IMG/VR virus record: IMGVR_UViG_3300003690_000041
Span: 1 to 55,809 of that record
DNA from: a virus
Lineage: Duplodnaviria > Caudoviricetes
DNA: 55,809 bases
Strand: one strand, 5' to 3'
In this document: piece by piece, positions 3,231 through 55,809 of the stretch
Layout: each line of letters opens with the position of its first letter
Numbering within the stretch: the first letter of the stretch is position 1
The notes under the pieces: model-generated
Seen by the model: only the letters and a program-made list of their open reading frames with translations
What the model was told of the DNA's origin: nothing
Database searches by the model: none
Translations under genes and position numbers: made by a program

Positions 3231-6200
3231 CTACGCTGCCAGTAGTTTTTGAACCTGCATTTCAAGCTGATTAATGCGTGTTTCGTACCCTTCTTTTATC
3301 ACCATAATGTCTTCATAGTTCTGCCAAACAGCACCATTTAGCGCCATTACGTGACGAGAGATATTCCACATTCCACCCTCTTTCACTGGTGCGCCTAAGA
3401 TTTTCATGTCCACCAGTTCTGGTTCATGAATCGTGACAAACTCATCCCACCGACTCTGCACGTATCCGTCGGCACCATTTCTGGCTCTTACCATCTCAAA
3501 ACCACGAACAATGTGCCTATCATTGATCTCATCGGTCAATGCAACAAGGGTGGTATTGGTGAGGTGCATTTGACCGTCTTCATCAACCATCATTCGGGTC
3601 ACCATAGACCCGTCGACCTGTGCCCGTATCGCAAACACATTTCCGTCAGCATTTATATTAGCCAATGCGTTAGAGCCGTTGTGTTCAGCGATAGCAAAAT
3701 TGACCAACCCTACAGCCCCAGCGTTGCTTTTTGACGTACTTGCCGTTCCGCCCTGCGCAGAAAACTGAAGAACAGTAGTAAAAACAGCATCCTCACCATA
3801 CGCAGCGATATTTAATCCACCCAAGGTGGCACTGTTTTTACTAAACCGTGCATAACTATCTGTCTCCATAGCGAAATCTATGTGATTGCTTGTAAGTCCA
3901 TGCGCAATATCGCTGGACTTGAAATTGAGGATTTCGTCGTCATTGGCATCTTGATTAATGGTCATACCTACAGTCATATTAGCGTTGGCAATCTCCGTTC
4001 CCATATAAACGGTTCCTGCTGCACTGATACGCATAGAACGAAGATTTCCAGCATAAAAGTCTAATGTATCTACGCTGTGGTCATATTGTACGCGGCCCTG
4101 TTTGGGTGTTCCCGTTGCGTCTGCAAAATAAAGCGCACTGGACTCTCCGGTTCCTGTAACTAGGGTGATACCTGATTGCGCTGACCCACCCCCAATAATT
4201 AAATCATCCGCAAGAGCGTCAAATCCTAGTTCTGTTCCACCAATAGCAAGCTGAGAACCGATGAACATATCTTTAGCACACCCAATACCACCATCGGTGT
4301 GAATAGATCCTGTCACGGTAGATGTGCTGTCTGTGGCGTCATCAATGCTCAGAACGCCCGATCCTGTAATGGTCGATGCGGTGAGGACTGTAAGGGCAGA
4401 AGTCCCTGCCACCGTCAGCCCAGCAGCACCAGCAAGTATCAGGTCATCGATAGATGCATCCCACAACATATGAGCACTTGCTGTAGCCCCGAAGAACTTG
4501 ACATCGTACCCAGCATCGTCCACACCCACCGTGACGGTACTATTAAACTGAGAAGTGCCTGAAGCCGTAAGAACTGTAAGGGCAGAAGTCCCCGCCACCG
4601 TCAAGCCAGCAGCTCCGGCAAGTATCAGGTCATCAGCCGACTCATCCCAGAGGAGGTGTGCGCCTGCTGTGGCACCGAAAAATTGAACGTCGTGACCTGT
4701 ATCGTTAACGCCCACGGTCAGGGTATTTGTCAATACAGAAGTCCCTGCCACCGTCAGCCCAGCAGCACCGACAAGTTTTAGATCATCAGCAGACGCATCC
4801 CACAGACAGTATGCCCCCGATGTAGCCCCGAAGAACTTGACATCGTACCCAGTATTATCCACGCCCACCGTGACGGTACTATTAAACTGAGAAGTGCCTG
4901 AAACCGTTGTAACTGTAAGAGCAGATGTCCCCGCCACCGTCAACCCAGCAGCGCCAGCAAGTATCAGATCATCAGCCGACTCATCCCACAGACAGTAAGC
5001 ACTTGCTGTATCCCCGAAGAATTTAACATCGTATCCAGTACCATCCACGCCCACTGTGACGGTACTATTAAACTGAGAAGCACCTGAAGCCGTAAGAGTA
5101 GTCCCCACAATCGCAGCAAACGAACCAGCCGCGACAGAAGCAGCACCGATAACGGTTCCATCAATAGCACCACTGTTGATGTCCACATTAGTCATTTCAT
5201 GGGTGTTAAAGTCAATCTCAACAGCACCATCACCGCCAAAGGTTAGCTTTCCGGCAGAGTGCGTCAACGTCACGTCACCGCCATCCCAGTTGAACACCGC
5301 ACCTGTAGCAATCAACAAGTCATCGCCCAAATAAATATCCTTAGCTACACCTAACCCTCCGTCAGTGTGTATAGAGCCTGTCGTAGCCGATGAGCTGTCG
5401 GTGGTGTCGTCAATGCTTAAAACGCCCGATCCCGTAACGGTCGTTGCGGTCAGATTAATGGCACCGCCTGACGTAATCGTCAAGTCGGTGTCATCACCTT
5501 CGATCTTTTCACCTGAACCAAAGGTAACACCCACGTTGGCAGGGACAACCACATCAGTCGTTGCAGTCAACTTAATGTCACCACCTGATGTCACTGTCAA
5601 GTCGGTGTTATCGCCTTCGATCTTTTCACCTGAACCAAAGGTAACACCCACGCTGGTAGGGACAATCACATCAGTAACGGCAGTCAAATTGATGGCACCA
5701 CCCGATGTAATTGTCAAGTCAGTATTGTCCCCCTCGATCTTCTCGCCTGAACCAAAGGTAACACCCACGCTGGTAGGGACAATCACATCAGTGACTGCCG
5801 TCAAGTTGATAGCACCACCCGATGTAATTGTCAAGTCAGTGTCATCGCCTTCGATCTTTTCACCTGAACCAAAAGTGACACCGACGTTGGCAGGGACAAC
5901 CACATCAGTCGTTGCGGTCAGATTAATGTCACCACCTGATGTCACTGTCAAATCAGTGTTATCACCCTCGATCTTTTCGCCCGTACCAAAGGTAACACCC
6001 ACATTAGCTGGTATTACTACATCAGTAACTGCCGTTAAGTTGATGGCACCACCCGATGTCACTGTCAAGTCAGTGTTATCACCTTCAATTTTCTCACCTG
6101 AACCAAAAGTGACACCCACGTTGGCTGGTATTACTACATCAGTCACGGCAGTCAAATTGATAGCACCACCTGATGTCACTGTCAAGTCAGTGTTATCACC

Positions 6201-17266: not shown

Positions 17267-18262
17267 TTAGGTTACTCCTGTCAGCTTGCCCAGCTTGCGC
17301 CGATTGTTTGCAAGCATATTACCCATGAAGAGGATCTGTGTCACCAACGAGTCCTGGTTGACGGGCTTCTGCAAGCCGTCATCAGCCTGGGTGAAGTTGG
17401 CATCTTCGTGGACATACAGGAAAAGGTGGTTCAGATTGAGCACGTAGACCGTCCCAGAAGTGCAATAATCAGACCAGATGAAGTCAGACCCCTTAAACTT
17501 GAGGACGTTGATACCTGCATCTGCACCGCCTGCGGGGTTCTGCTCATAGCGCACCTGTGGCTGGAGCAGGGCCTCATACGACTCATGAATGGTTCGTGTC
17601 GTAACGAGCAAGTTGGGGCTTGAGTCCGTGCCCTCTGCTCCTTGCGAACACTGGTTCCAGACAGACCGCATCTTGGGAACCAAGTTTACCGCTGCTGCAC
17701 CCACAGAAGCAGCCACCTTGTTGGCCCACGCAGTATTTGCGGTAGGCACAGAAGCGTAGCTGGTAGTCCCTGTGACTGTTTCAATGGCAGCTTCCAATCC
17801 AGTAATATTCTTGGAGGCATTGCCAGTTCCATCAGAATACATCCCTGTGGTGATCACATCGTTGAGAGACTTCGCTGCATTGTTCAGTCGCTCATCCAGC
17901 AAGCCAAAGAGCCTGGACTCATTGGACTTGTTGACACGCATCTCGCGTCCTGAGATGACCACAGAGGCAGAGTATTGCTTCCAGGCGAACATACCCGATG
18001 TCTGCGTCTGCTTACGCGTGACATCTAGAGCATCGAGATCCTCATAGGATTTCGCCGTTCCATTCTTTGCGTAATCAATGCTGATACGCATACGTTCACC
18101 GCCGTCAACGATTTTCAACTGCCCACCAGCACGCATACGTCGCGTCAATGGTGAAGCATCAAAGATGGTGTCCTGCACCACCCCTGTCATCATCGTGTTT
18201 TCGAGGGTAGACGCCAGAAGAGAACGAATAGTCCTGGTATCGGTAGTGTCTGTATTAGCCAT
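17267..18262 (-). CDS. Major capsid protein
   Basis: 331 aa after the scaffold; DGGERMRISIDY, YSDGTGN..K.ITGL and terminal NNRRKLGKLTGV are typical of this MCP class. Confidence 0.85.
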   Translation of the reverse strand: MANTDTTDTRTIRSLLASTLENTMMTGVVQDTIFDASPLTRRMRAGGQLKIVDGGERMRISIDYAKNGTAKSYEDLDALDVTRKQTQTSGMFAWKQYSASVVISGREMRVNKSNESRLFGLLDERLNNAAKSLNDVITTGMYSDGTGNASKNITGLEAAIETVTGTTSYASVPTANTAWANKVAASVGAAAVNLVPKMRSVWNQCSQGAEGTDSSPNLLVTTRTIHESYEALLQPQVRYEQNPAGGADAGINVLKFKGSDFIWSDYCTSGTVYVLNLNHLFLYVHEDANFTQADDGLQKPVNQDSLVTQILFMGNMLANNRRKLGKLTGVT

Positions 18263-20110: not shown

Positions 20111-22180
20111 TTACTGACCTCCTCCTTCGCTACGCACAGCAGCCTCTCCCTGTCGTCCTGCCGTATTGGGACTTTGACTCAACTGCTGCGGATTGAGGCT
20201 CTGGTTGCCACCAAGGGGTCCGAAGTCACCGCCACCCGATAACGTCTTGAAAGCCTCTACGGTCTGCGCCAGTCTTAGGGGATCATCCATTACATCACGG
20301 ATATTCTGCTCAAACTCACTCTCCGAAGCAGGCAACAGGGTCTCCGGGTCTCTGATGTCAAAGCCTCTGCGTAACAGAAGCTCCAACGCCTTGACGATAT
20401 TGGGAGGGGGCATACCTAACTGGAGATGTGCCGGGATAGAGCCGACGAGAATATTGTATAGATCCAACCAGTTTTTTCGTTCAACGGCTTTCGCTTGCCT
20501 ACGGGGAGAGACTTCAATTCGAAACTGGTACTGGCCTTTGGCGACTTCTTCGGTGACTTCAGCAAATCGCCAAGTGCGTGGATCAATAAGAAACTGTCTC
20601 TCTGGGAGGAACTGCTGATGTAACTGCCAAAATTTCTCCGCTGTCTCAATTTGCATATGCTCAAAGCGTTGGACACGAGCATCCTCTCTGGCAGAGTTCC
20701 TCTTCTCTATGATGCTCGACTCCGTGGCTGTCTCTGCGGTGATGCTACTCTGTGGCTGTGGCGTCCCCGCCGTCCTGTCAAAGAAATTCATGATCTGACC
20801 GATGAAATTCTGTTTGTCACTTTGCACATCAAAGAAAGGAAGGGGGATGACAGGAGGACCCTGCTTGGTAGACAGACCAGGGACTCCATAAGCAGACTCT
20901 CCTGGTGCGTTGATCACCTGATCGAACTCGTCTTTACTCATCAGATCGCTGTCATACAACCACATATTCTTACTCTTACGCATCGTATATAGAGCAGAAT
21001 CAAAAAACTCGTTGACCAACTGCTGGATATTGTCAGCACCAGCCAATGCCAGGACAGGCTTGTTGAGCCATGTCTTCACGTTATCCTGGAATTTGAGCAT
21101 GACAGCAGGGTAGTCGTTCAAGAACTTATAAGGCCATTCCTCGTCGTGGCGTAGCAATTTATTATGCCCTTCCGCAATGGTGATCAGCAAATGCCTGTTC
21201 TTATTACCACTCACCGGGAAGTCCCGCGCCCATATCTCCCACCCTTCCAGCATAGCAAAGTCGTTGAAAGAGCTATTCTGCGCCTTCCTCCACTCTTTCT
21301 CTCCTATGTGTGACAGCCGATGTCGAGAGGCCAAGTCCCTCGTATTCTTGAAAGTAGGCTGTCTCTTCCACCAATACAAAGGAGCACGAATGCGGAAAGC
21401 AAGCCATCGCGCATCCCTCATACTCATACCTGCAAAAGGGTCCATCACGAAGTCATCGGGTGCCCACCGATTGCCAAAAGGAGCCTCCCACTTGATCCTC
21501 GTATCTACAGCGGGCTGCTCCATATCTGTCAATGCTTCGTGATGCCTGATATGCTCTTCGGTGATCTCTACTATCTCAGGGTGTAAGCTGGGGGTCTGCA
21601 ACAAGACCATATGTGCTTCGATATGTGCTTCGTGGTCCTGCCATACGGTAGGACGGGTAATCGTCCCGATCATAATAGCATTGTTTTCCATATCGGGGTC
21701 ATCAATGACGATAGTGCTCGCATCGGTGACAAAGAGGTCTCCCTGGTTCTCCACCACGGCATTCCAACCCAACTTCTTGATGGCATACGGAAGAAGGAAA
21801 GCATCCAGAGCCATCATATCGTCTTGCTCTATCTGCTTGGTATGGTCATACCAGTAGTTGGCCTGCCTCTGCACCACATCAGTACCATCCACACTGGCAG
21901 CATTTTCTGGCCCTACCATAAACTCCGGGTTCCTGTCCAGCATATTCGCCTTAGACTGGTCGACCCAAGCAAACACCATAGACCCTTTGACACGCTGCAC
22001 ATTGTCAGGACCCATATCCTCCAGGTCTTTCTCTCTCAACCCGTGGGGGATATTATTGTATAACTTGACGACACGAGCACCCGCTTTCATATATGGGTCT
22101 GCCCACTCCTGGGCAAGGGCTATCTGACCCCTCCAGAAAGATACCCTCTCTTCATCATTAGTAGGATAATGATCAAGCAT
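20111..22180 (-). CDS. Portal protein
   Basis: 689 aa directly after TerL; AETATESSI motif and size of podovirus-type portals. Confidence 0.8.
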   Translation of the reverse strand: MLDHYPTNDEERVSFWRGQIALAQEWADPYMKAGARVVKLYNNIPHGLREKDLEDMGPDNVQRVKGSMVFAWVDQSKANMLDRNPEFMVGPENAASVDGTDVVQRQANYWYDHTKQIEQDDMMALDAFLLPYAIKKLGWNAVVENQGDLFVTDASTIVIDDPDMENNAIMIGTITRPTVWQDHEAHIEAHMVLLQTPSLHPEIVEITEEHIRHHEALTDMEQPAVDTRIKWEAPFGNRWAPDDFVMDPFAGMSMRDARWLAFRIRAPLYWWKRQPTFKNTRDLASRHRLSHIGEKEWRKAQNSSFNDFAMLEGWEIWARDFPVSGNKNRHLLITIAEGHNKLLRHDEEWPYKFLNDYPAVMLKFQDNVKTWLNKPVLALAGADNIQQLVNEFFDSALYTMRKSKNMWLYDSDLMSKDEFDQVINAPGESAYGVPGLSTKQGPPVIPLPFFDVQSDKQNFIGQIMNFFDRTAGTPQPQSSITAETATESSIIEKRNSAREDARVQRFEHMQIETAEKFWQLHQQFLPERQFLIDPRTWRFAEVTEEVAKGQYQFRIEVSPRRQAKAVERKNWLDLYNILVGSIPAHLQLGMPPPNIVKALELLLRRGFDIRDPETLLPASESEFEQNIRDVMDDPLRLAQTVEAFKTLSGGGDFGPLGGNQSLNPQQLSQSPNTAGRQGEAAVRSEGGGQ

Positions 22181-23729
22181 CCTCTAACTCCTGTAAATGC
22201 TGGTCCACATCAACAATCATATCCTCGACAACAGGGACATAATAGGCTCTTCGCGGGTTCAATCCTGGGTTCATAATCCTCTTCCTGATATCTCCCATCG
22301 TCATCACCTGACCCCTGACGGGGTGTGCAAACCTGTTCGGTGCCACAGCACCCATCGCATAATATCTGGTGTCGTCGCACGGGTGGTCCTCCTGCCGTGT
22401 GTTCATATCTTCTTTGGGATTGTCCTCGTCACCGTCAAAGACGGCATTCATCATACAACGCTCGAAATTCAAACACTCAGGGCTGTAATACATATGAGGA
22501 TGGCGCACCATATCGCCATCACCATTCTTCCTATACGCCAGGAGGTCTTTCAAAAACCTCCACCCCGCCAGCCTGTTCTTATTAGCCATTTCCAGACGAA
22601 GGCCCGCTTCCCTACGGAACACATCACTGGTCATCCTGTCCATAGGGTTGCCACCAGCCTCTGCCCGCGTATAGAAGATAGACGTATCAGCAAATACCCT
22701 CTCCGGCTTCCTACCACGCGTGACAGGGTGGTTCTCTACCATATCCCTGATCCTACCAGCATATTCACTGAGCCACAACCCCTTGCCATACCATTCCCCA
22801 ATCCTATAGCTCACATTCCTGCCCTCATGCTCCCCAAAGCCCCACAGCCCGAAGCTGGTATAGTCGTTCTCCCCGTAATCCAGGCTACCGTAAAGTTTCC
22901 AGTCGTCTGGCAACACCCCGCGATCAAACATCTCCCCATAGTCTTTACAATGAATCTTCGGATCAAACAAGGGAAAAAACTTCCCAAAGAAGACATTGAA
23001 GTTGCCATACAGCCACGCCTGCTCCAATTGCTCGTTACCCTCACAAGCCTCCCGCACAGTCCCAGGATACCCCGGATTGGCCTCCAACAACTTCTTGTTC
23101 TCCCACAAAGTGCTCCTCAGAAACATACGCGTGCGCACAGTCCCCATATCAGGATCTTTGATCTTTATGATCTCACCACCAGGATGGGCAGGATCATCAG
23201 GGATCTTGAAATAATCCTTTATCCATGCCAACCCAGCACCACCAGGATTTCCCGTGCTCCTAATACGCAATGGAACACCCTTTGCCCCCGTCCTATTCGT
23301 AGCCTTCATCCTCTTATAAGGACCCCCAGAAGGCCAATGCGGAAGCTCGTCATATCCAATCCACGCATAAGAAAGACCCAGATGCTTCTCCGCATCGCTG
23401 TCCATAGCCATATGAAAAAACTCAAGTTGAGCACCACCAGCAAAACGCCACCGCGCAGGAGGACCTTCCCGGAAATCACTGTTAGGCCACATCGTCAGAA
23501 ACAACTCCTTGCTCCTATCAATCAATTCCCTAAACTGACTAAACGTCCTCCTAAACAACACTCCCTTCCAAGCCTTACCATGCTCCACCACGTCAGCAGC
23601 GAAATCCATCAATAACCAGTCACTCTTACCACCACCACGATTACCACCACCAAACAACTCGTCAACCACATAACGAGCATCCAACGCATCCACCTGAAAC
23701 CCATCCTGTGGCTCCCACTGATCAGCCAT
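22173..23729 (-). CDS. terL: Terminase large subunit
   Basis: Walker A GGNRGGGKS, Walker B WIGYDE, coupling motif STGNPGG, nuclease SLDYG and EDHPCDDTRY. Confidence 0.93.
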   Translation of the reverse strand: MADQWEPQDGFQVDALDARYVVDELFGGGNRGGGKSDWLLMDFAADVVEHGKAWKGVLFRRTFSQFRELIDRSKELFLTMWPNSDFREGPPARWRFAGGAQLEFFHMAMDSDAEKHLGLSYAWIGYDELPHWPSGGPYKRMKATNRTGAKGVPLRIRSTGNPGGAGLAWIKDYFKIPDDPAHPGGEIIKIKDPDMGTVRTRMFLRSTLWENKKLLEANPGYPGTVREACEGNEQLEQAWLYGNFNVFFGKFFPLFDPKIHCKDYGEMFDRGVLPDDWKLYGSLDYGENDYTSFGLWGFGEHEGRNVSYRIGEWYGKGLWLSEYAGRIRDMVENHPVTRGRKPERVFADTSIFYTRAEAGGNPMDRMTSDVFRREAGLRLEMANKNRLAGWRFLKDLLAYRKNGDGDMVRHPHMYYSPECLNFERCMMNAVFDGDEDNPKEDMNTRQEDHPCDDTRYYAMGAVAPNRFAHPVRGQVMTMGDIRKRIMNPGLNPRRAYYVPVVEDMIVDVDQHLQELEDA

Positions 23730-47300: not shown

Positions 47301-47592
47301 GCGGGTGAGTAAACGTCTTCAGCGCCTCGCCCGTCCTGTCCCACACGCTACCCAGCGCCTGGACAAACCCCTCTGGGTTGTCCAGCATCTGGTCAAAGCG
47401 ACCTCCCTGTAACTCCTGTTCCAGGGCATCGTCACCAATGGCACGACGTAGCTGCCTCTCTCCCCTGATAGAAGCATTTCGTGCAGCACGCATAGCCCTG
47501 CGCTGCCTAATAGTAAGAGGAGCAGTAAAGAAATCTGTCTCCTGCTGTTGCTCCAGGTCTTTTGCTACCATGTCAGAGAAGTCTTCAGGCAT
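44314..47592 (-). CDS. Large putative internal virion (ejection) protein
   Basis: 1092 aa, helical; SPGYHARN and KKYLFDYGELTQFER..FVPFYTWMRKNIP motifs; last gene of the late operon. Confidence 0.65.
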   Translation of the reverse strand: MPEDFSDMVAKDLEQQQETDFFTAPLTIRQRRAMRAARNASIRGERQLRRAIGDDALEQELQGGRFDQMLDNPEGFVQALGSVWDRTGEALKTFTHPLFDLLQIGQFTTAGAALELQRTGNGKEALKRASAEFLNALPFVDEADALALTGVDPTRASFRDVLERAEFAPFEDGRHNEYATAAAGFVLDVVLDPTTWLGGAGLRLAGGGIKSLAMPFVDLPGIKGVRGALGRKLVPHFELQELARKHPRMQESVDKFLGGLSEREGAVAEGAVEIRDLAVQLRSNLSPTESKFLGLYLDKTPDHFEAILRDVTAGDPRLMEHLQGKFQAFRGAYKDLADKELQGGIFDEGILRADYAPGRYGGATSVRKHKSLMAKLGLPEEDQLFEFSDSVAQEAAKLGQAAPIFTKAKKLNTLEHRVVASIGTELDPGAQFALRGLESVRARATQRFIDSVLSDPSVSYKIVDPQLLETMKKGGSGKSLDELMSEFGDDTGRQLFEQAESFRNSLGEIGYSAWRPFRGTMGEVTDMTSVAKLKKGTRFMDDEGIVYTVSKTTDDGIEAIKQGVDDVVKFSKSEAVNPFNVNPAYVLPRQFIDELNLADNIMSNRHDETKQFFNMMRTMQMPWKGWALASPGYHARNMQSNIFNNMLAGVGFKKVGGLMVPNPAPYAKALALVFGKGDNISLKVGDEVLKGQDIIRAARRFKVVERGLFTSDIPEQVEAEVFGNLWKKGGKSGFDKYLADVSNAKGDTLDRVIRSVEGKDTTRRELLKGVSETARERDALGLLNKAFGVNNPVLQFNRRIGEKVESHARLAHWIQKIGDGMSAEEAALSVKKYLFDYGELTQFEREIMKAFVPFYTWMRKNIPLQFQAIFENPGRYAAMTGKPIDAIESLSEDWRDVPTPDYFQELHAVRAPKEVADFVQTMNQTFDDVMAKVTGAQSVPTGLQPVFINPNYPFQDLNRMNWQDALSSLSPFVKLPFEWAMGEGGRGYSIFLDRPIEKFAGQPMETGVGGTDIKVSRKAQHAMETLFPPLGKMHRFADKARKGQGASQILGEVFGIKAIQVDVEEAERSKVYRYRDKIQRIRQKYRELGYNI

Positions 47593-49212: not shown

Positions 49213-50067
49213 TTATTCTCCTGTTGTTTTTCTCCCAAATATTTTTCTTGTTGGTTCTGATCCTTTGTATGGTAAGACTTCTACTTTACAGCCCTTTTGT
49301 ATAAATTGAGACAACTCCAACATATCATTATTGAACATTCTAACACATCCATGCGAAATAAATCCTTGGTTAATAAATTTTTCTTTTTCTTTAATCACTT
49401 TATCGGGTTCATACTGACCATGAATTAAAAACGGATTTCTATCTTTATAAAAAGATAAAGACATACGCATTTTAAAAGGCCCTTCTTGCCTTGGACCAGT
49501 TGGTCTTTTCTGTATCTGTATAATCTCCCCAATACCAGTAGGGGTGAAATATTTTTCCCCGTATCGCTTGCCAGTAATATCGCCTGTGCCAACATGGTAA
49601 CCACGAACCTCATTTCCTTGCTCATCTAAAAGACGCATCGTATTAGTATTCGGATCAATTACTATTGAGTACAAACCTTGAGGATCAGCAAGGTCTTGCA
49701 ATGCTTTTTGTGTAAAAGTAGTAACCGAATCCTCGGAAACGTTTCCAACTTGTTCTTCCGTCATTTCTTTTAGACGAGCAACAACAGGGTCAAGAGGCAA
49801 GTCAGAACTTTCCAACCTAACATCTTCAGGTTGAGGAAGTTCTACAGGTAATTGTAATCGCACCTTTGGTCGTATTAATATTTTATCAAGTCCAATATTG
49901 CTTGGAGTAATCTCTGTGTCTTCAGGGAAGACTATTACTAATTCTTCTTCAAGTGGGATTGATGGACGTATTTGATCAAGTCCAATATTACTTGGAGTAA
50001 TTTCTATGTCTTCAGGGAAATCTTCTGACTTAATTCCTTCAAGTGGGATTGATGGACGTATCGAGTC
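49213..50067 (-). CDS. L,D-transpeptidase (YkuD) domain, probably translated as a +1 frameshift extension of 50066-51838
   Basis: FTPTG, LIHG...ISHGCVRM catalytic motif; the frame is open upstream to 50103 with no ATG/GTG/TTG before 49863. Confidence 0.8.
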   Translation of the reverse strand, partial: DSIRPSIPLEGIKSEDFPEDIEITPSNIGLDQIRPSIPLEEELVIVFPEDTEITPSNIGLDKILIRPKVRLQLPVELPQPEDVRLESSDLPLDPVVARLKEMTEEQVGNVSEDSVTTFTQKALQDLADPQGLYSIVIDPNTNTMRLLDEQGNEVRGYHVGTGDITGKRYGEKYFTPTGIGEIIQIQKRPTGPRQEGPFKMRMSLSFYKDRNPFLIHGQYEPDKVIKEKEKFINQGFISHGCVRMFNNDMLELSQFIQKGCKVEVLPYKGSEPTRKIFGRKTTGE

Positions 50068-50080
50068 AAAGAAACCTCCC
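50065..50080 (-). promoter_or_regulatory. prfB-type programmed +1 frameshift signal
   Basis: GGG AGG TTT CTT TGA C: internal SD, 3-nt spacer, CTT-TGA-C. Confidence 0.72.
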
Positions 50081-51838
50081 CGACCCTTGCTGAAGGTCAG
50101 TTTTTATGGTGTCTGGTTGAATACTTGATGGCGATGGAGGACCCTGTGGTAGTTCACTTGATGGCGATGGAGGACCCTGTGGTAGTTCAGGAGAGCCAGG
50201 AAGTAGGCGGTTCTCCTGATCAGGAATTGTCTGGGGTTTAGAAGGTATCCTGAGACCTGTATCCGGCTTAGGGATACGCTTCATCTTTTCCTCGTCGTGT
50301 ATATTATCCAATACGCTCCTAGCGTAGTCTACGTGTGCTGGTTCATCTTGTGATTGTTTAGTAGTCAAGTCAAGAATGTTTTCTTTCTCAATCCTTACAG
50401 ATGGAAACTTATCGGCGTGGGTGTCCACGTACTGACTCGCCAAATCAAACAGTTTCTGTGCCACAGCAAAACTCATATCATGGTGTTGTGAAGAAGAAGC
50501 CATATTGAAAATACTGTCTCTCATAGCCTGTCTATCTTCGGAAGTAAAGTCTTTACCCTGTGCTATCATCTGATCAATTCTACTCTTCCACCCCTGTGAC
50601 CCAATGAATTTATTCCTTGCTGTGTCTCCTTCGGGGTCATTAGATGATGGCGGTCTGAGTGTCTCTATTAACTGGCTATGATATTTTTCCCTCTCGGCGG
50701 CACGCATTCCAGAATCAGGAAAAAGGTTACCAGCAGTAGCATCCCAGCGAAGCAACGCGTTTGTTATTTTTTCTTCTGTGGTATACTTTCTCATCTCAGC
50801 AGCACGACTTAACATTTTTGCTTCTTCAGCACTTCCCACTTTGATTTGATCAGGAGATTTATCAATACCCAATGAAAGAAGTGCCGCTGCTTGATATGAC
50901 CATTGATTATCGGCAGCCAGAAAAGTAGCTATTCTCAATCCCCTATCCGTCGCATTCTTGTAAGCAGATAGTTCAGTCTCACGAAGATTTTTGTCAAGAG
51001 TAAATTGAGTCAATGCATCATCTGTTTCCCTCTCATATAAGGCCCGGTCTCTTGTAGCCTTGATCAATTCTCTCTGTGTGGGCTTTTCTGTAGTTTCAAG
51101 CAGTAACCCTAAAGCATCAGGATCTTTACTGATTTGTTTCAATTTAGTGAAGAAATCAGCCTCTTTTTCATCAACAGCAGCAACAATAAGATCATTCAAA
51201 TAACCTATATCTTCGTCTGTTACATGCTTTCTTTCCTCTGAAGAAAAGAAATCCTCGATATTAACATTAGGACGCCCTGATTGTATTGCCGTGACAATCA
51301 TTTTCTCTTTTGCGTCAGCAATAAATAACGACCTTTTTTTAGCCATTGCATTCCGTTGTCTATTTGCTTCCTCAGGAGTAATGAAATTACTGAATTCCAT
51401 CCGTTGCACAAGATCGAGAAACGTATCCCATTCTCCTGCTTTCAAAGCCTCGGTTTTACGCCTCTCCGCTAAATCCCTCTCCCCCAACAGGCCCTGACGC
51501 TGCTGCTCTGCGAACTGTGCCTCCTTTACATTGCGCTTCTGTTCGCCTCGAATGCCAGCAGTAATACCCTTAGACAAACCAGTCCCCAGAGCAGCACCAA
51601 ATTCAGCACCTTTGCGACCTTTGACCAACGCACCAATACCAGTCCCGATCAACGGAGCCAGAATAGCAGCCCACTTCAACTTACCGCCAGAGTCAAATAA
51701 TTGGTCTGCTTTGACGCTAGCAGGTATCCCCGACTGCGCAGGGGCAGCCTGTGTCGGTGGAACCTGTGGAAGTATGTTCTGGGTAGGAGACTGAGGCTGA
51801 AGCTGAGTCTGAGTCTGAGTAGGAGGATTAGACGCCAT
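50066..51838 (-). CDS. Putative internal virion (ejection) protein
   Basis: 590 aa; Gly-rich hydrophobic N-terminal segment and helical body; AAGGAG RBS. Confidence 0.7.
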   Translation of the reverse strand: MASNPPTQTQTQLQPQSPTQNILPQVPPTQAAPAQSGIPASVKADQLFDSGGKLKWAAILAPLIGTGIGALVKGRKGAEFGAALGTGLSKGITAGIRGEQKRNVKEAQFAEQQRQGLLGERDLAERRKTEALKAGEWDTFLDLVQRMEFSNFITPEEANRQRNAMAKKRSLFIADAKEKMIVTAIQSGRPNVNIEDFFSSEERKHVTDEDIGYLNDLIVAAVDEKEADFFTKLKQISKDPDALGLLLETTEKPTQRELIKATRDRALYERETDDALTQFTLDKNLRETELSAYKNATDRGLRIATFLAADNQWSYQAAALLSLGIDKSPDQIKVGSAEEAKMLSRAAEMRKYTTEEKITNALLRWDATAGNLFPDSGMRAAEREKYHSQLIETLRPPSSNDPEGDTARNKFIGSQGWKSRIDQMIAQGKDFTSEDRQAMRDSIFNMASSSQHHDMSFAVAQKLFDLASQYVDTHADKFPSVRIEKENILDLTTKQSQDEPAHVDYARSVLDNIHDEEKMKRIPKPDTGLRIPSKPQTIPDQENRLLPGSPELPQGPPSPSSELPQGPPSPSSIQPDTIKTDLQQGSGRFL

Positions 51839-52089: not shown

Positions 52090-55000
52090 TTATATAAGGG
52101 CAGCAGCACCAATAGCACTACCTGCCTGGATTAGTGAATTAAGGAACCCGTTGCCCCCACCGCCAGACTGAGGGATATTTCCGCCAAATGATACATTGCC
52201 AGAAGGGAACAGAGTAGCAAGAGAAAGAGAGGCAAGAGCCATACGCTCTTTGGAGTCTATTTCCACTAACGCATCTATTGCCTTATTTACATGCTGGAAA
52301 TTATTAGGATCAAAATGCTCTGGTTCCATCTGCTGTGTCACAACGTTCCACGTATCATAACTACGGGGAATAAGCCCCATCTCTACGGCTAACTGAGCCA
52401 TCGTCTTGCTACCTGCATCATCCAGTCGGCCCAGTTCCTTTTCTGCCAACTGACGCTGCAACGAATCTGAACTGGCACCAGGGATCGCATCACCGTTAGC
52501 ATCATACACAGCAGCCAACTCAATGCCTCCCAATGCATTGACCGTCCACATCCTCTGTCCGAAAGTGGTATTAAACTGCCTCGCCTCTTCCGTCATAGCT
52601 TGACGTGTGTTGGCAAGGGCATTGGCGACTTTTGAGTGCTCTATTCCGAGAGCCGTAGAAGCCTGTCCTATCTCTGCATTTTGCCTCTGTCTGGTAAGTT
52701 CCAGACCTCTCTCTTCTATCGTAAGCCTACCCTCAAGGACGCCATCTGAATTGGCCTGTTTAGCGAAAGAAATAAAGTCCTCGAAAGCGATCACGCCGTC
52801 GTGGTCAAAGTCAAACTCAGGAGAAAAGTTAGGATCGCCTGCCTGTGATAGATAAGACCCCATAAACTCATCAATAGTGGCTCCGTTACTGGAGCCGAAT
52901 ATCTCCGCTACGCGCATCGAATCAATGGCCTTGTTCTCTCTGATGGCCTCATCAAGGCGTCTGTCTTCCAAAGCAATTCCCTTGTCAGCCTGTGACTTCG
53001 CTTCAAAGAACTGCTCCCTGGACAGGTTGAACGCATTGGCGTTGTCTTTGGCCCTCTGTGCTGCCTCTATGTCGAACTCCCGTCTGTTCTCCAGCAGTCC
53101 GTCTTCTTGCAGGCCCAGACTGACAAGGCCCAAGTCCCTTCTAAGAGCGAAGTCATGCTCTTGCAGGTTCATCCCTCTGGCTTCCAGGTCTTTGCGCAAC
53201 TTCAACTCCTCTTCATTGAGGTTGAGACCTCTCATCTCTGTCCTCTCCCTCAGCTTCAACTCTTCCTGTTTCAACCTCTGGTCTCTGGTGCTCATTGTAG
53301 CAGTAACGCCACCTTTGGGACCAAACACAGCACCCGTCAAATCAGCAGCAGGCAACGTCTGCGTCACCCTACGGAAATTGCCTGAAACAGGATTAAGGTC
53401 AAACCCTGCATTAGCAGCTTTCGTAACAAAATCGTCCGTTAGGGGAGTAACAGGGAATCCCAGAGCCTTTTGCAAAACCTCTACGTCCACCTCTTCACCC
53501 ACCAGAGCACCTGTAAGACCCGATTCCTGCAATCGTCTGAGATCATCTTGCCCCAACAGACTAATCTGTTGACCAATGGCCCCCTGGACAAATCCCCGTG
53601 CTGCCAGTTCAGCCTGTTCTCTGGACTCCTGTGCCCCTATCAAAGCACTAAGGTCTTCACGGCGTCCTTCTCTCATCCTCTGTGTCTTTTCCCGTGCCAA
53701 AGCAGACTCTTCTGCCAACTGTTGCTGCCCAATGGTCCCCAGGAGGCGCGTAGCATTGCCTGAGCCACCTTCTCCCGATATACCCACCAAACGGGACACC
53801 TGATCTCTGAGGGCGTCAGATCGCGTCTTGATCTCTGTGAGACGTGTGGCAAATTCAGTCGCTATCTGTGCATCTACTGTCCCTATCCCTATCTCTTTAG
53901 CAATATCACCGATTTTCGTTTCCATAAGTGAACGAGGATCTCTACCAAATACTTTTGCATTTTGCATTTTGCCTTCGGCGTCCTTACCAATACCTCCGTA
54001 AATTTTTCCTGGTGTAAGATCAGCCTGTGCTTGCACAGCAGAGGCTGTGTCTCCCCTTAATCCTGCAAGACCACCCTCTTGTCCTGCTCCCGTAAAGGGT
54101 GTTTTTATAGGGTCTACCACTCCGACCTTTTCACCTTCGGTCTCTACACCTTCGATCTTTTCACCAGGAATTCTAAATTCTTTTACCAATTTATCCCCTG
54201 TTCCAACGTTAACTTTTGTGCTTCCTATGTTACCAATATCCAAATTATCGGTATCCAAATCAGGCTCAGTCCCTACACCACCTACACCCAATCCAGGAGC
54301 AGTCCCTGGTTTATCTACTACCGGGATTCCAAGCACACGGCTTGGTTGGGTGACAACTGGAGTAGGAACTGTTGCTGTCTGTGCAGGTAAGGATGTACGA
54401 ATTGAGATAACGTTTCCATCTTCATCAAGCTGTGGAACAGGTGGAACAGGTGGAACAGGAAGAGGCTGTTGACCAAATATAGCGCCACCTCTACCCGCAT
54501 AGGTAGTAAAAGGAGAAGGAGGGGGTTTGGTCGGGTCAAAAACACCCGCAACCTGACCTCCTGCACCAGGACCCGCAGCAGGCAGATCCGGCTTGCCTAC
54601 AGGGTATTGAGCTTTGAGACTCCCTTGTACAGGAAAAGGCTGTACGCCACCGGGAGGAGGTTGAGTCCCATCACCACCATCACCACCAGGAGGAGGTTGA
54701 CGACTACCAGGAACAGGTACACGGTTTCCTTTAGCATCAATATAATATTTATATCCACCTTCATAGTCTGTTAGAATTGGTTCTCCATTAGGCCCAACGG
54801 TTGGAGCTTCACTAACAATTACACTTTCTTTTGTCTTAGCATCAATATAATATCTATTTCCATATTCATCTGTTTGAATTAGTTCTCCATTAGGCCCAGT
54901 AGTTGAAGCAGGATCAGTTGTCCCACCATCACCACCGAGGGGAGGGGGAGGAGGTTGAGTCCCACCATCACCACCGGGAGGGGGTTGAGTCCCACCATCA

Positions 55001-55809
55001 CCACCGGGAGGAGGTTGAGTCCCATCACCACCGGGAGGAGGTTGAGTCCCATCACCACCATCACCACCAGGAGGAGGGGAAGGGTGAGGAGTTTTTGGAA
55101 CGTTACCAACATTTACACGTTGTCCTGTAATTTTATTAATATAAAATGTAAATCCATATTCATCTGTTTGAATTGGTTCTCCATTAGGCCCAACGGTTGA
55201 AGGAGGATCAGTTGTCCCACCACCAGGAGGAGGAGGAGGTTGACCAACATTTACACGTTGTCCTGTATTAGCATCAATATAATATTTATATCCACTATCA
55301 TCTGTTAGAATTGGTTCTCCATTAAGCCCAACGTTTGAAGCAGGATCAGTTGTCCCACTACCAGGAGGAGGAGGAGGAGGAGGTTGAGTCCCACCGTCAC
55401 CACCAGGAGGAGGAGGAGGGGGTTGAGTCCCACCATCACCACCAGGAGGAGGCGGAGTAGCCTGCCAGTCCGGATGCGTATAGCCGCCAGCGTTGTCGTC
55501 CTGGTATCCACCAGACTCCTGTATGTATTTCCGATACCCCTCCATACCTCCCTTGTCGTAGGCCTGCTGGGCACCTGCCTGAGTAAAGCCACCCGGCACG
55601 GTGCTGTCACCAAGGCCACTGGGAGGTCCAACATTCGTGACGGTTATGTTGGTTGGTTGCCCACCGTCACCACCAGGAGGAGGAGGGGGGGGAGCCACAG
55701 CACCACCAACAGAAAAAGGTGGTTGACCACCAGGAAAAGGAACAGACGATAAAGGGGGGTAAGTCCCACCGTCACCACCGGGAGGAGGAGGAGGGGGGGG
55801 TTGAGTCCC
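52090..55809 (-). CDS. C-terminal part of the giant proline-rich protein (open to the right edge), putative ejection protein
   Basis: Frame open from 55809 to the stop at 52090; PPPPGGDGGTQ repeats, four copies of a ~30-aa module, coiled coil, EF-hand-like motif, Gly-rich hydrophobic tail. Confidence 0.8.
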   Translation of the reverse strand, partial: GTQPPPPPPPGGDGGTYPPLSSVPFPGGQPPFSVGGAVAPPPPPPGGDGGQPTNITVTNVGPPSGLGDSTVPGGFTQAGAQQAYDKGGMEGYRKYIQESGGYQDDNAGGYTHPDWQATPPPPGGDGGTQPPPPPPGGDGGTQPPPPPPPGSGTTDPASNVGLNGEPILTDDSGYKYYIDANTGQRVNVGQPPPPPGGGTTDPPSTVGPNGEPIQTDEYGFTFYINKITGQRVNVGNVPKTPHPSPPPGGDGGDGTQPPPGGDGTQPPPGGDGGTQPPPGGDGGTQPPPPPLGGDGGTTDPASTTGPNGELIQTDEYGNRYYIDAKTKESVIVSEAPTVGPNGEPILTDYEGGYKYYIDAKGNRVPVPGSRQPPPGGDGGDGTQPPPGGVQPFPVQGSLKAQYPVGKPDLPAAGPGAGGQVAGVFDPTKPPPSPFTTYAGRGGAIFGQQPLPVPPVPPVPQLDEDGNVISIRTSLPAQTATVPTPVVTQPSRVLGIPVVDKPGTAPGLGVGGVGTEPDLDTDNLDIGNIGSTKVNVGTGDKLVKEFRIPGEKIEGVETEGEKVGVVDPIKTPFTGAGQEGGLAGLRGDTASAVQAQADLTPGKIYGGIGKDAEGKMQNAKVFGRDPRSLMETKIGDIAKEIGIGTVDAQIATEFATRLTEIKTRSDALRDQVSRLVGISGEGGSGNATRLLGTIGQQQLAEESALAREKTQRMREGRREDLSALIGAQESREQAELAARGFVQGAIGQQISLLGQDDLRRLQESGLTGALVGEEVDVEVLQKALGFPVTPLTDDFVTKAANAGFDLNPVSGNFRRVTQTLPAADLTGAVFGPKGGVTATMSTRDQRLKQEELKLRERTEMRGLNLNEEELKLRKDLEARGMNLQEHDFALRRDLGLVSLGLQEDGLLENRREFDIEAAQRAKDNANAFNLSREQFFEAKSQADKGIALEDRRLDEAIRENKAIDSMRVAEIFGSSNGATIDEFMGSYLSQAGDPNFSPEFDFDHDGVIAFEDFISFAKQANSDGVLEGRLTIEERGLELTRQRQNAEIGQASTALGIEHSKVANALANTRQAMTEEARQFNTTFGQRMWTVNALGGIELAAVYDANGDAIPGASSDSLQRQLAEKELGRLDDAGSKTMAQLAVEMGLIPRSYDTWNVVTQQMEPEHFDPNNFQHVNKAIDALVEIDSKERMALASLSLATLFPSGNVSFGGNIPQSGGGGNGFLNSLIQAGSAIGAAALI

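What the first reader, a model, noticed from the sequence alone, without database searches (positions are those of the whole stretch)
49213..51838. prfB-type +1 frameshift fusing a putative virion protein to an L,D-transpeptidase domain
Seen: the 590-aa ORF ends GGG AGG TTT CTT TGA C. The +1 frame from GAC (50067) is open for 284 codons through a duplicated acidic linker into a YkuD domain (HG...SHGCVRM), with no standard start codon in its first 68 codons. Known: prfB autoregulation uses an internal SD, a 3-nt spacer and CTT-TGA-C. Inference: the phage makes a 590-aa form and an ~874-aa form whose ratio depends on host RF2 level. Familiar phage frameshifts are mostly -1 slippery sites, so this cassette is unusual.
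Basis: partly seen in the sequence, partly recalled or inferred. Interest (0 to 1): 0.85.

Follow-up and report, generated by a model that had tools for sequence, protein, structure and literature searches.

The report
Phage gene with RF2-type +1 frameshift
An uncultured marine phage seems to copy the frameshift signal that bacteria use to make release factor 2, so that part of a 590-residue late protein is extended with a cell-wall-modifying enzyme domain.

Summary
On the minus strand a 590-codon ORF (50069-51838) ends GGG AGG TTT CTT TGA C. This has the same phase and spacing as E. coli prfB (AGG GGG TAT CTT TGA C).

The +1 frame opens only 12 codons before the TGA. It then runs 284 codons into a YkuD L,D-transpeptidase domain, and its first ATG/GTG/TTG is codon 69. 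The 68 start-less codons are real coding sequence: they match the repeated linker modules of homologues from residue 1 (best E 2e-9; reversed control 0.16).

A sequencing indel is very unlikely. Contigs from two independent studies cross the junction with no differences and no gaps.

A 48%-identical relative (L006) has AGGGGG-GGG-CTT-TGA-C at the same junction, although its upstream protein is not detectably related. In 22 of 24 related loci the YkuD protein is an ordinary gene with an early ATG.

None of 80 other IMG/VR matches to the 17-mer has this ORF layout. The papers I searched report CUU-stop +1 sites only for prfB, and phage +1 shifty stops only at CCC.

Best reading (about 0.65): a programmed +1 frameshift gives a 590-aa and an 874-aa product. 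Virion location and dependence on RF2 level are untested.

The parts
50069..51838 (-). ORF1, 590 codons in the 0 frame, ATG start preceded by AAGGAG. It encodes a rapidly evolving protein of unknown family; a Gly-rich hydrophobic stretch near the N-terminus was judged by eye only.
   Evidence: The only homologue is P0002, 59% identical over 86% of the query. No Pfam or PHROG family matched.
50075..50081 (-). Internal Shine-Dalgarno-like GGGGAGG. In ORF1 phase it reads (TC)G GGG AGG, and it ends 3 nt before the CTT codon.
   Evidence: E. coli prfB has AGG GGG at the same place. The review notes GG_AGG as a variant of GG_GGG in RF2 genes (PMC5009743 passage).
50072..50074 (-). TTT, the 3-nt spacer. 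It would be the E-site codon when CTT is in the P site.
   Evidence: It corresponds to TAT in E. coli prfB.
50065..50071 (-). Shift site CTT_TGA_C: the last sense codon of ORF1, its TGA stop (50066-50068) and the 3' C. GAC (50065-50067) is the first +1 codon.
   Evidence: The consensus CTT_TGA_C plus an upstream SD is described for prfB (PMC3711429 passage).
49216..50067 (-). ORF2, 284 codons in the +1 frame; stop at 49213-49215. No ATG/GTG/TTG in codons 1-68.
   Evidence: Homologues align from residue 1-4 onward.
49879..50061 (-). Tandem 90-nt unit, 2 copies, encoding two ~30-aa linker modules (RP..PL..PED..GLD). It begins at ORF2 codon 3.
   Evidence: The modules match repeated linkers of homologues at E 2e-9, against 0.16 for the reversed control. 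AlphaFold2 models residues 1-90 with low confidence and no secondary structure.
50123..50189 (-). Perfect 33-nt x2 tandem repeat near the 3' end of ORF1 (ELPQGPPSPSS twice). Copy number varies between strains.
   Evidence: Run X5 has a contig that skips 33 nt at 50122..50156.
49276..49671 (-). YkuD (L,D-transpeptidase fold) catalytic domain, ORF2 residues 133-264.
   Evidence: Pfam PF03734, E 6.4e-17. Genome search placed it at 49276-49671. Foldseek's top hits are B. subtilis YkuD 4a1i/1y7m, E 2e-10.
49339..49356 (-). Active-site motif S-H-G-C-V-R, ORF2 residues 238-243.
   Evidence: In the 29-sequence alignment S238, C241 and R243 are invariant, and H239 and G240 are at least 90% conserved.
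49861..49863 (-). GTG, the first canonical start in the ORF2 frame (codon 69). Gene callers used it to call a 216-aa protein.
   Evidence: P0003, P0029. No SD core precedes it (sequence). It lies inside sequence conserved with homologues.

Best explanation
The two ORFs are decoded as one gene with a programmed +1 ribosomal frameshift of the release-factor-2 (prfB) type.

Proposed mechanism:
1. A ribosome translating ORF1 reaches the last sense codon, CUU, in the P site, with UGA-C, a weak RF2-only stop, in the A site.
2. The internal SD GGGGAGG lies 3 nt upstream of CUU and pairs with the anti-SD of the translating ribosome.
3. With the weakly pairing UUU as E-site codon, this lets peptidyl-tRNA-Leu slip from CUU to UUU.
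4. GAC is then read, and translation continues for 284 codons.

Ribosomes that terminate make the 590-aa protein. Ribosomes that shift make an 874-aa protein. In the long form the same body is followed by a ~90-residue repeat linker modelled without secondary structure and a C-terminal YkuD-fold peptidoglycan enzyme.

What is shown: the cis elements, their phase, the ORF architecture, the absence of an indel, homology from the first +1 codons, and the same cassette in a relative.

What is inferred: that shifting happens, how efficient it is, that the ratio follows host RF2 activity, and that the products are virion or ejection proteins acting on the host wall at infection.
For: 1. Cassette identity. 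The window reads GGG AGG TTT CTT TGA C and E. coli prfB reads AGG GGG TAT CTT TGA C, with the same phase and the same 3-nt spacer. Literature passages describe CUU_U, a 3' C and the SD as the conserved RF2 signals.

2. Narrow entry window. The +1 frame opens 12 codons before the TGA. It has no ATG/GTG/TTG until codon 69 after it.

3. The start-less part is coding. ORF2 residues 1-68 match the linker modules of homologues from residue 1. The best E-values are 2.3e-9 (P0038) and 2.5e-9 (P0042); the reversed control gives 0.16. phmmer alignments to P0030, P0033, P0034, P0035 and P0036 start at query residue 4.

4. Not an assembly error. X2 record 2 (633 nt, 49527-50159) and X3 record 10 (152 nt, 50025-50175) come from different studies and have 0 differences and 0 gaps. 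No indel is listed near the junction in any of the 4 runs laid.

5. Conservation. L006 has GCG AGG GGG GGG CTT TGA C at the end of a frame open for 172 codons from the contig edge, and its YkuD ORF is in the +1 frame. Its upstream protein has no BLASTP similarity to ORF1. The proteins called there occur on 12 and 11 contigs.

6. The domain is intact. The catalytic motif and fold are conserved.

7. SD use. 22 of 41 candidate gene starts in the window have an SD core, often AGGAG.

8. Rarity. 0 of 80 IMG/VR loci with the 17-mer show this architecture.
Against: - There is no expression, reporter or proteomic evidence.
- In 22 of 24 related loci the YkuD protein is an ordinary gene with an ATG within 25 codons of the ORF opening. 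A fusion is therefore not general to the family.
- No close in-frame fusion of an ORF1 homologue with YkuD was found. The near-length search for ORF1 covered 324-1033 aa and gave only P0002, 531 aa.
- L006 has two ATGs in the +1 frame 12-14 codons upstream of its TGA, so it could initiate independently. The shared CTTTGAC could then partly reflect conserved G-F-D codons in that frame.
- An SD near a gene's end is also what a downstream gene's ribosome-binding site looks like (review passage).
- A product starting at GTG 49863 would still hold the whole catalytic domain.
- The motif GGAGGNNNCTTTGAC occurs a second time in the window as plain coding sequence.
- The host, its anti-SD and its RF2 are unknown.
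Confidence: 0.65

Rival explanations
1. There are two separate proteins. ORF1 terminates at TGA. The YkuD protein starts on its own, either at GTG 49863 (216 aa) or at a non-canonical codon such as ATA (codon 3) or ATT (codon 12). The G-rich SD is then a leftover or working ribosome-binding site for the downstream gene, and its likeness to prfB is coincidence.
For: - Gene callers chose the GTG start (P0003, P0029).
- The YkuD protein is a stand-alone gene in 22 of 24 related loci.
- SDs at the ends of upstream genes are common in this window, for example before the 1092-aa ORF.
- 19 of 41 candidate starts in the window have no SD core, so lacking one does not exclude the GTG.
- A product starting at GTG would keep the helices and the whole catalytic domain.
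Against: - The 68 codons upstream of the GTG are stop-free. They contain a frame-preserving 90-nt duplication.
- They match homologous linker modules starting at residue 1, with E 2e-9 against 0.16 for the reversed control.
- There is no SD core before the GTG.
- ATA lies 13 nt after GGAGG. The GAAGGA before ATT abuts it with no spacer.
- This reading does not explain why L006 keeps AGGGGG-NNN-CTT-TGA-C in exact prfB phase.
Confidence: 0.2
2. The gene is decaying or recently broken. An ancestral independent YkuD gene with an ATG in the overlap, as in L006, lost its start codon in this lineage. ORF2 is then no longer expressed.
For: L006 has ATGs where the window has none. The window is the outlier among 24 loci.
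Against: - ORF2 is intact over 284 codons, with its catalytic residues conserved.
- The same junction is found in contigs of runs from other studies and years.
- The identical 216-aa C-terminal part appears in a second assembly.
- A dead ORF would not be expected to keep a perfect prfB-phase cassette.
Confidence: 0.1
3. The frameshift is a sequencing or assembly artefact. The true genome has a one-base difference, so ORF1 and ORF2 are really a single continuous ORF.
For: A single-base indel in the 36-nt overlap would fuse the frames. The relatives L004 and L006 have G7 and G8 runs at the junction, where such errors are common.
Against: - The window has only a G4 run at the site.
- Contigs from two other studies cross it with 0 differences and 0 gaps.
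- No indel is listed there in 4 runs.
Confidence: 0.03

Closest known systems
Bacterial prfB (release factor 2) autoregulatory +1 frameshift, e.g. E. coli K-12 b2891
   Same: The cis cassette is the same in the same phase: a 6-7-nt SD-like run, a 3-nt spacer (E-site codon), CUU in the P site, a UGA stop and a 3' C. The functional part of the product lies in the +1 frame with no start of its own (passages in PMC3711429 and PMC5009743).
   Different: - ORF1 here is 590 codons with a conserved homologue, not a ~25-codon leader, so the terminated product is probably functional.
- The product is not RF2, so there is no autoregulatory loop.
- The element is in a phage late-looking gene block.
- The E-site codon is UUU rather than UAU.
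Phage structural-gene +1 'shifty stop' extensions: Listeria phages PSA/A118/A500 tsh (CCC_UGA) and lactococcal 936-group MTP-TpeX (CCC.UAG). SPP1 tail protein is cited in the latter paper.
   Same: A phage late gene whose last sense codon before the stop allows a +1 slip. This adds a C-terminal domain to a fraction of the copies. ORF2 has no start of its own (passages in PMC5009743; PMC4759559).
   Different: - The shift codon here is CUU, not CCC.
- A precisely spaced upstream SD is present. The passages I read do not describe one for those phages.
- The appended domain is an enzyme (YkuD), not an Ig-like or carbohydrate-binding decoration.
YkuD-family L,D-transpeptidases and L,D-carboxypeptidases (B. 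subtilis YkuD; Bdellovibrio Bd1075; Campylobacter Pgp2; Helicobacter Csd6)
   Same: Pfam PF03734 scores above its cut-off. The H...SHGC.R motif is present. The AlphaFold2 core matches 4a1i/1y7m at E 2e-10 and 7o21, 6xj6 and 4xzz at 1e-5 to 1e-7.
   Different: The domain is encoded by a phage and preceded by a repeat linker modelled without structure. Sequence identity to solved structures is only 13-23%. Whether it cross-links or trims peptidoglycan cannot be told from sequence.
Virion-associated lysins and internal virion proteins with a wall-active domain (general class described in PhaLP, PMC8310338; T7 gp16 is recalled, not checked here)
   Same: A wall-active domain is attached to a large late-block phage protein. 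PhaLP lists YkuD among the enzymatic domains of phage lytic proteins, with 10 entries.
   Different: Virion location is not shown here. No PHROG or Pfam family links ORF1 to any known structural protein.

Membership tests
prfB-type (RF2) +1 programmed frameshift cassette | In-frame CUU immediately followed by a UGA stop at the end of ORF1 | tested here: met
   CTT TGA at 50066-50071 (-), in ORF1 phase.
prfB-type (RF2) +1 programmed frameshift cassette | C directly 3' of the UGA (weak termination context) | tested here: met
   C at 50065. The review passage says the 3' nucleotide is nearly always C.
prfB-type (RF2) +1 programmed frameshift cassette | Shine-Dalgarno-like sequence ending 3 nt upstream of the CUU codon | tested here: met
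   GGGGAGG at 50075-50081, spacer TTT. E. coli prfB has AGGGGG and spacer TAT.
prfB-type (RF2) +1 programmed frameshift cassette | The main functional coding sequence continues in the +1 frame without its own initiation codon | tested here: met
   284 codons, first canonical start at codon 69, homology from residue 1.
prfB-type (RF2) +1 programmed frameshift cassette | The gene encodes RF2 itself, so the shift closes an autoregulatory loop; ORF1 is a short leader | tested here: not met
   ORF2 is a YkuD-domain protein. ORF1 is 590 codons with a 59%-identical homologue. This locus therefore uses the cassette but is not a prfB gene.
prfB-type (RF2) +1 programmed frameshift cassette | Frameshifting shown experimentally and responsive to RF2 level | not testable with these tools
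   No reporter, proteomic or RNA data were available. All runs found were DNA contigs.
Phage structural-protein +1 shifty-stop extension (PSA tsh, 936 MTP-TpeX) | +1 slip on the codon 5' of the stop adds a C-terminal domain from an ORF that has no start | tested here: inconclusive
   The architecture fits. The products were not observed.
Phage structural-protein +1 shifty-stop extension (PSA tsh, 936 MTP-TpeX) | Shift codon CCC (proline) before the stop | tested here: not met
   The codon is CTT. The known cases are CCC_UGA and CCC.UAG.
Phage structural-protein +1 shifty-stop extension (PSA tsh, 936 MTP-TpeX) | Both short and long forms are present in virions | not testable with these tools
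   The phage is uncultured and known only as a contig.
YkuD L,D-transpeptidase domain (PF03734) | Profile match above the curated cut-off | tested here: met
   62.9 bits against a 23.4-bit cut-off, covering profile positions 2-146 of 146.
YkuD L,D-transpeptidase domain (PF03734) | Catalytic His and Cys in the conserved H...SHGC.R context | tested here: met
   H216, S238, C241 and R243 are invariant and H239 is at least 90% conserved in 29 sequences. The roles of these residues are recalled from the family literature, not tested.
YkuD L,D-transpeptidase domain (PF03734) | YkuD beta-sandwich fold | tested here: met
   The AlphaFold2 model has block-mean pLDDT of 67-96 over residues 131-270, mostly about 90 or higher. 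Top Foldseek hits are 4a1i_A at E 2.3e-10 and 1y7m_A at 5.5e-10.
Virion-associated lysin / internal virion protein | The protein is part of the virion | not testable with these tools
   Context only. The major head protein and large terminase lie on the same strand. There are no family hits for ORF1.

The most novel reading that the evidence does not exclude
A clade of marine phages may attach a peptidoglycan-active YkuD domain to an upstream late protein through interchangeable recoding signals.

- Two lineages (this window and L006) use a full mimic of the host's prfB cassette: SD, 3 nt, CUU_UGA_C.
- Two others (L004 and the L003/L005/L011 group) have the YkuD ORF in the -1 frame and an in-phase A_AAC_CCY heptamer in the last codons of the upstream ORF.
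- More distant relatives use separate genes.

In the prfB-mimic lineages the ratio of short to long protein would read out host RF2 activity. The dose of wall enzyme would then be tuned to the physiological state of the infected cell. Within the literature I searched, this would be the first natural use of the RF2 frameshift cassette outside prfB.
Probability: 0.3. Interest if true: 0.85.

Novelty: new variant of a known kind. Interest (0 to 1): 0.7.

Why it matters
The RF2 frameshift cassette is one of the best understood recoding signals. In the sources I read it is treated as private to prfB. The PRFect paper states that all +1 RECODE cases with CUU before a stop are prfB genes.

A phage gene carrying the complete cassette in exact phase would show that a virus can adopt a host regulatory recoding signal. 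It would do so to set, and possibly to condition on host RF2 activity, the ratio of two forms of a late protein.

It would also add a third type of phage +1 shifty stop, CUU with an SD, beside CCC_UGA and CCC.UAG.

There is a practical point as well. Gene callers split this locus into a 590-aa and a truncated 216-aa protein. Such cassettes are therefore missed in viral metagenome annotation. A phase-aware search for SD-NNN-CTT_TGA_C at ORF ends could find more of them.

Tried and rejected
Searches that found nothing useful:
- Close relatives in IMG/VR with ORF1 as query: none.
- blastn of the locus and tblastn of P0005 against GenBank phages: no match.
- YkuD alignment against GTDB genome contigs: no relative, so no host hint.
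- Function of ORF1: Pfam at E up to 5, PHROGs and the ESM Atlas gave nothing usable. Atlas scores were at most 0.86 and TM at most 0.25, both below the tool's own bars.
- PHROGs on the upstream ORFs of relatives: only the 781-aa protein of L002 gave weak portal or adaptor hits; 9 of 10 proteins had none.
- BLASTP between ORF1 and the upstream ORFs of L004, L005, L006, L008 and L009, and between the N-terminal parts of long YkuD proteins (P0035, P0043 and others) and those ORFs: nothing significant. I therefore cannot say that P0035 (769 aa) is an in-frame fusion of an ORF1-like protein.

Ideas tested and set aside:
- Strain variants as a test of selection. 28 of the 40 listed substitutions are non-synonymous. 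They come from contigs of diverged strains laid at 88% likeness, so I draw nothing from them. I note only that 50084 C>T is synonymous in the ORF1 frame and changes Gly to Asp in the +1 frame.
- RNA structure at the site. The z-score is -1.95, and 7 of 200 shuffles fold at least as well. This is not significant, and a prfB-type shift does not need a structure.
- Alternative genetic code. Reading TGA as sense would extend ORF1 by only 9 codons in frame. 13 of the 41 candidate ORFs I tallied end in TGA, and the window has no tRNA genes. Rejected.
- A TTG overlapping the stop (T-T-G at 50067-50069) is in the third frame, which closes after 21 codons. Rejected as a start.
- The P0002 and P0014 proteins stop at ...PPPSSP. 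This is probably where their contigs break at the 33-nt repeat, so they say nothing about the junction. That is an inference.
- Parts of the stretch without cover in individual runs are not used as evidence.

Not available:
The ENA contigs that encode P0002, P0004, P0005 and P0010 could not be fetched.
- Supplementary files of papers were not opened.
- The claim that a phage prfB-type cassette is not in print rests on searches and on passages read. Subscription journals are not covered.


Full report
WHAT THE WINDOW IS

The window is a whole IMG/VR virus record of 55,809 bases, classed as linear, with an estimated completeness of 76%. It belongs to a tailed phage.
- PHROGs finds a major head protein at 17267-18262 (E 2.6e-57).
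- PHROGs finds a large terminase at 22173-23729 (E 8.5e-21). Both lie on the minus strand.
- Near-identical sequence is held by 20 listed public runs from 16 studies, mostly seawater and marine metagenomes. The probable source is a hydrothermal-vent metagenome.
- G+C is 48%. There are no tRNA genes.
- The finding lies in a minus-strand block. In order it holds a giant Pro/Gly-rich ORF (52090-55809, open at the contig end), a 96-aa ORF, ORF1 (590 aa), ORF2 (YkuD), a 525-aa ORF and a 1092-aa ORF.

THE OBSERVATION

ORF1 (50066..51838, minus strand, ATG preceded by AAGGAG) ends ...GGG TCG GGG AGG TTT CTT TGA C.
- The +1 frame has a TAA 12 codons upstream of the TGA. From GAC (50067) it is open for 284 codons, down to the stop at 49213-49215.
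- The third frame is closed.
- ORF2 has no ATG, GTG or TTG before the GTG at 49863, which is codon 69.
- The near-cognate codons in the first 68 codons (ATA, ATC, ATT) have no suitably spaced SD. ATA at codon 3 lies 13 nt after GGAGG, and the GAAGGA before ATT at codon 12 abuts it.
- ORF2 residues 133-264 match Pfam YkuD at 62.9 bits, against a cut-off of 23.4.
- The linker holds a 90-nt unit twice (49879-50061, 87% matches). ORF1 holds a perfect 33-nt unit twice just upstream (50123-50189).

IS IT AN ERROR?

I laid Logan contigs of four runs from four studies other than the probable source on 49213-51838.
- X2 record 2 (633 nt) covers 49527-50159 with 0 differences and 0 gaps.
- X3 record 10 (152 nt) covers 50025-50175 with 0 differences and 0 gaps.
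- X6 has a contig that covers 50084 with 50 nt to its end. It carries C>T there, which is GGG to GGA in ORF1 phase and so synonymous.
- No inserted or deleted letters are listed between 50060 and 50100 in any of the four runs. The listed indels are elsewhere, and those I checked keep the frame: 33 nt skipped at 50122..50156, and 21 nt inserted after 51737.
- The site has only a G4 run.

An assembly indel is thus very unlikely. These are contigs, not raw reads, so a minority variant cannot be excluded.

IS THE START-LESS PART OF ORF2 TRANSLATED?

Homology says yes.
- In the library-wide phmmer search, 52 proteins hit at E up to 0.001 and 41 at up to 1e-10. The alignments to P0030, P0033, P0034, P0035 and P0036 begin at query residue 4, and the alignment to P0042 begins at residue 1.
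The reversed sequence gives at best 0.16.
- What matches is a ~30-residue module (RP, two residues, PL, then PED, then a GLD-like turn). It is repeated two to six times in the linkers of the relatives.
- In the window the first module begins at codon 3 of ORF2.

Translation must therefore enter this frame inside a stretch of about 14 codons. That stretch holds no canonical start but does hold the cassette.

AlphaFold2, run on the 29-sequence alignment, models residues 1-90 with low confidence and no secondary structure. Two helices follow at 94-107 and 120-127, then a confident beta-sandwich from about 134 to 264. The best structural matches are B. subtilis YkuD (4a1i, 1y7m, E about 1e-10), other L,D-transpeptidases, and the L,D-carboxypeptidases Bd1075, Pgp2 and Csd6. 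The residues S238, C241, R243 and H216 are invariant in the alignment.

COMPARISON WITH prfB

The E. coli K-12 prfB shift region reads CTT AGG GGG TAT CTT TGA CTA. The window reads TCG GGG AGG TTT CTT TGA CTC.
- The SD-like run, the 3-nt spacer, CTT, TGA and the following C are in the same phase.
- Passages I read state that the prfB consensus is CTT_TGA_C with an upstream SD-type stimulator (PMC3711429).
- They also state that CUU_U is the highly conserved shift site, that the base after UGA is nearly always C, that the SD is a major conserved stimulator, that GG_GGG is sometimes GG_AGG, and that weak E-site pairing was proposed to favour the shift (PMC5009743).
- FSscan models the same 16-nt window: six SD nucleotides, then the E, P and A codons, then one base (PMC2790909).
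- This phage uses SD-led initiation. 22 of 41 candidate starts have an SD core, often AGGAG. Its host's ribosomes should therefore pair with the internal SD.

RELATIVES

ORF1 has one detectable homologue, P0002 (531 aa, 59% identity), which probably breaks at the repeat.

The YkuD ORF has many homologues. I examined the junction in 24 loci from IMG/VR and JGI/TARA metagenomes. Some of these are the same contig or near-identical: L011 with L003 and L005; L024 with L002; L020 with L021; L026 to L028; and L017 with L018.
- In 22 of 24 loci an ATG lies within the first 3-25 codons after the frame opens. These are ordinary separate genes of 352-789 aa.
- L007 is cut by its contig end.
- L004 has no ATG until codon 68 and only a GTG without an SD at codon 31.

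So a fusion is not a general property of the family, and the window is an outlier.

The closest relatives are the informative ones.
- L006 (48% identity, 1,819-nt contig) has a frame open for 172 codons from the contig edge. It ends ...GCG AGG GGG GGG CTT TGA C, and its YkuD ORF is in the +1 frame. That is AGGGGG, three bases, then CTT_TGA_C, the E. coli arrangement.
- L006's upstream protein shows no BLASTP similarity to ORF1. The cassette has therefore been kept while its surroundings diverged beyond recognition.
- The proteins called at L006 occur on 12 and 11 contigs.
- The caveat is that L006 has two ATGs in the +1 frame 12-14 codons upstream, without an SD. Independent initiation is possible there. 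Part of the shared CTTTGAC could then reflect G-F-D codons of that frame.

In L004 and in the L003/L005/L011 group the YkuD ORF is in the -1 frame and overlaps the upstream ORF by 76 and 19 nt.
- Both upstream ORFs carry an in-phase X_XXY_YYZ heptamer, A_AAC_CCC or A_AAC_CCT, within their last three codons. L004 also has G_GGG_GGC.
- As a background, 6 of 126 distinct open frames of at least 200 codons in these loci have any such heptamer in the last eight codons, and 2 of the 6 are these two.
- This is a lead for -1 frameshifting in those lineages. It is not a finding.

CONTROLS FOR CHANCE

- CTTTGAC alone is common in the window: 29 matches against 9.0 expected.
- GGAGGNNNCTTTGAC has two exact matches, where 0.39 are expected at up to one mismatch. 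The second (47392-47406) is plain coding sequence, GGA GGT CGC TTT GAC, inside the 1092-aa ORF, and the similarity does not extend beyond about 17 nt.
- Of the in-frame CTT_TGA sites that end a frame open for at least 60 codons, only the one at 50068 has the SD and a long +1 ORF.
In the 80 loci returned, none has at least 100 open codons both upstream in the TGA frame and downstream in the +1 frame. Most sit in genes that read the motif as G-G-x-F-D.

MECHANISM AND FUNCTION

I consider a prfB-type +1 shift the best explanation, at about 0.65.
- The ribosome pauses on UGA-C with CUU in the P site.
- The SD to anti-SD pairing three bases upstream and the weak UUU E-site codon favour re-pairing of tRNA-Leu on UUU.
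- GAC is read next.
- The products would be a 590-aa form and an 874-aa form.

By analogy with prfB, the fraction that shifts should rise when RF2 is limiting. For the phage this may simply fix a ratio, or it may couple the dose of enzyme to host physiology. Both are inference.

The role of the long form is also inferred. One possibility is a wall-active enzyme delivered with, or tethered to, a late protein through a flexible repeat linker, as in virion-associated lysins. PhaLP lists YkuD among the lytic-protein domains, with 10 entries.

ORF1 has no family. Its virion location rests only on the gene block and on synteny: in L003 the order is giant Pro-rich ORF, 399-aa ORF, YkuD, then an 851-aa ORF.

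RIVALS

- Independent initiation at GTG 49863 or at a non-canonical codon: 0.2.
- A recently broken gene: 0.1.
- An assembly artefact: 0.03.

The arguments for and against each are in the Rival explanations section.

NOVELTY

- The PRFect paper states that all +1 RECODE cases with CUU before a stop are prfB genes (PMC10274946).
- The phage +1 shifty stops I found in print are CCC_UGA (Listeria phages, PMC5009743) and CCC.UAG (lactococcal 936 phages, PMC4759559).
- Four full-text searches listed no paper that, by its title and abstract, reports a phage gene with the RF2 cassette. I read passages only in PMC5009743, PMC3711429, PMC10274946, PMC2790909 and PMC4759559. Subscription journals and supplements were not covered.

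I therefore file the finding as a new variant of a known kind. It combines a known cassette with a known strategy, C-terminal extension of a phage late protein by +1 shifting at a stop, and that combination is new.

LIMITS

- No expression data exist for this uncultured phage.
- The host is unknown.
- Only contigs, not raw reads, were laid.

Noticed in passing
window 47392-47406 (-): A second exact GGAGGNNNCTTTGAC lies inside the 1092-aa ORF, read as ordinary codons GGA GGT CGC TTT GAC (G-G-R-F-D). 0.39 matches are expected at up to one mismatch. Similarity to the frameshift site does not extend beyond about 17 nt.
   Followed up: partly
L004 3121-3142; L005 and L011 3738-3744; L003 about 4738-4744: In the nearest -1-frame relatives the ORF upstream of YkuD ends with an in-phase A_AAC_CCY heptamer. 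L004 also has G_GGG_GGC. The YkuD frame is open across the stop. Background: 6 of 126 frames of at least 200 codons have any in-phase X_XXY_YYZ in their last 8 codons. This may be -1 frameshifting that fuses the same gene pair.
   Followed up: partly
L008 about 5947-5953: The 642-aa ORF downstream of the YkuD gene ends with an in-phase A_AAA_AAG heptamer, and the next long ORF (697+ aa) overlaps it in the -1 frame.
   Followed up: no
window 52090-55809 (-): A giant ORF, open at the contig end (1239+ aa). It has many PPPGGDGG(T)Q repeats and several repeated modules that hit Pfam WW (E 9.3e-8). A related Pro-rich 780-aa ORF holds the same position in L003.
   Followed up: no
window 50122-50156 and 51737: Strain variation that keeps the frame. 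A contig of run X5 lacks one copy of the 33-nt repeat. Contigs of X5 and X6 carry a 21-nt insertion after 51737. X5 and X6 contigs diverge completely from the window above 50133 and look like the P0002-type variant of ORF1, while the junction side stays alike.
   Followed up: partly
window 49288-50119: One contig of run X3 joins 49288 to 50119, skipping 830 nt. That is almost all of ORF2 plus the shift site. Only 34 nt lie on the shorter side. It may be a chimeric contig or a deletion variant.
   Followed up: no
window 49879-50061 and the linkers of P0035, P0038, P0042 and others: A ~30-residue module (RP..PL..PED..GLD-like) is repeated 2-6 times ahead of the YkuD domain across this phage protein family. 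Its function is unknown, and in the window's protein it is modelled without secondary structure.
   Followed up: partly
whole window: The heptamer CTTTGAC is over-represented: 29 matches against 9.0 expected from shuffles, and no shuffle reached 29. I did not look for the cause.
   Followed up: no
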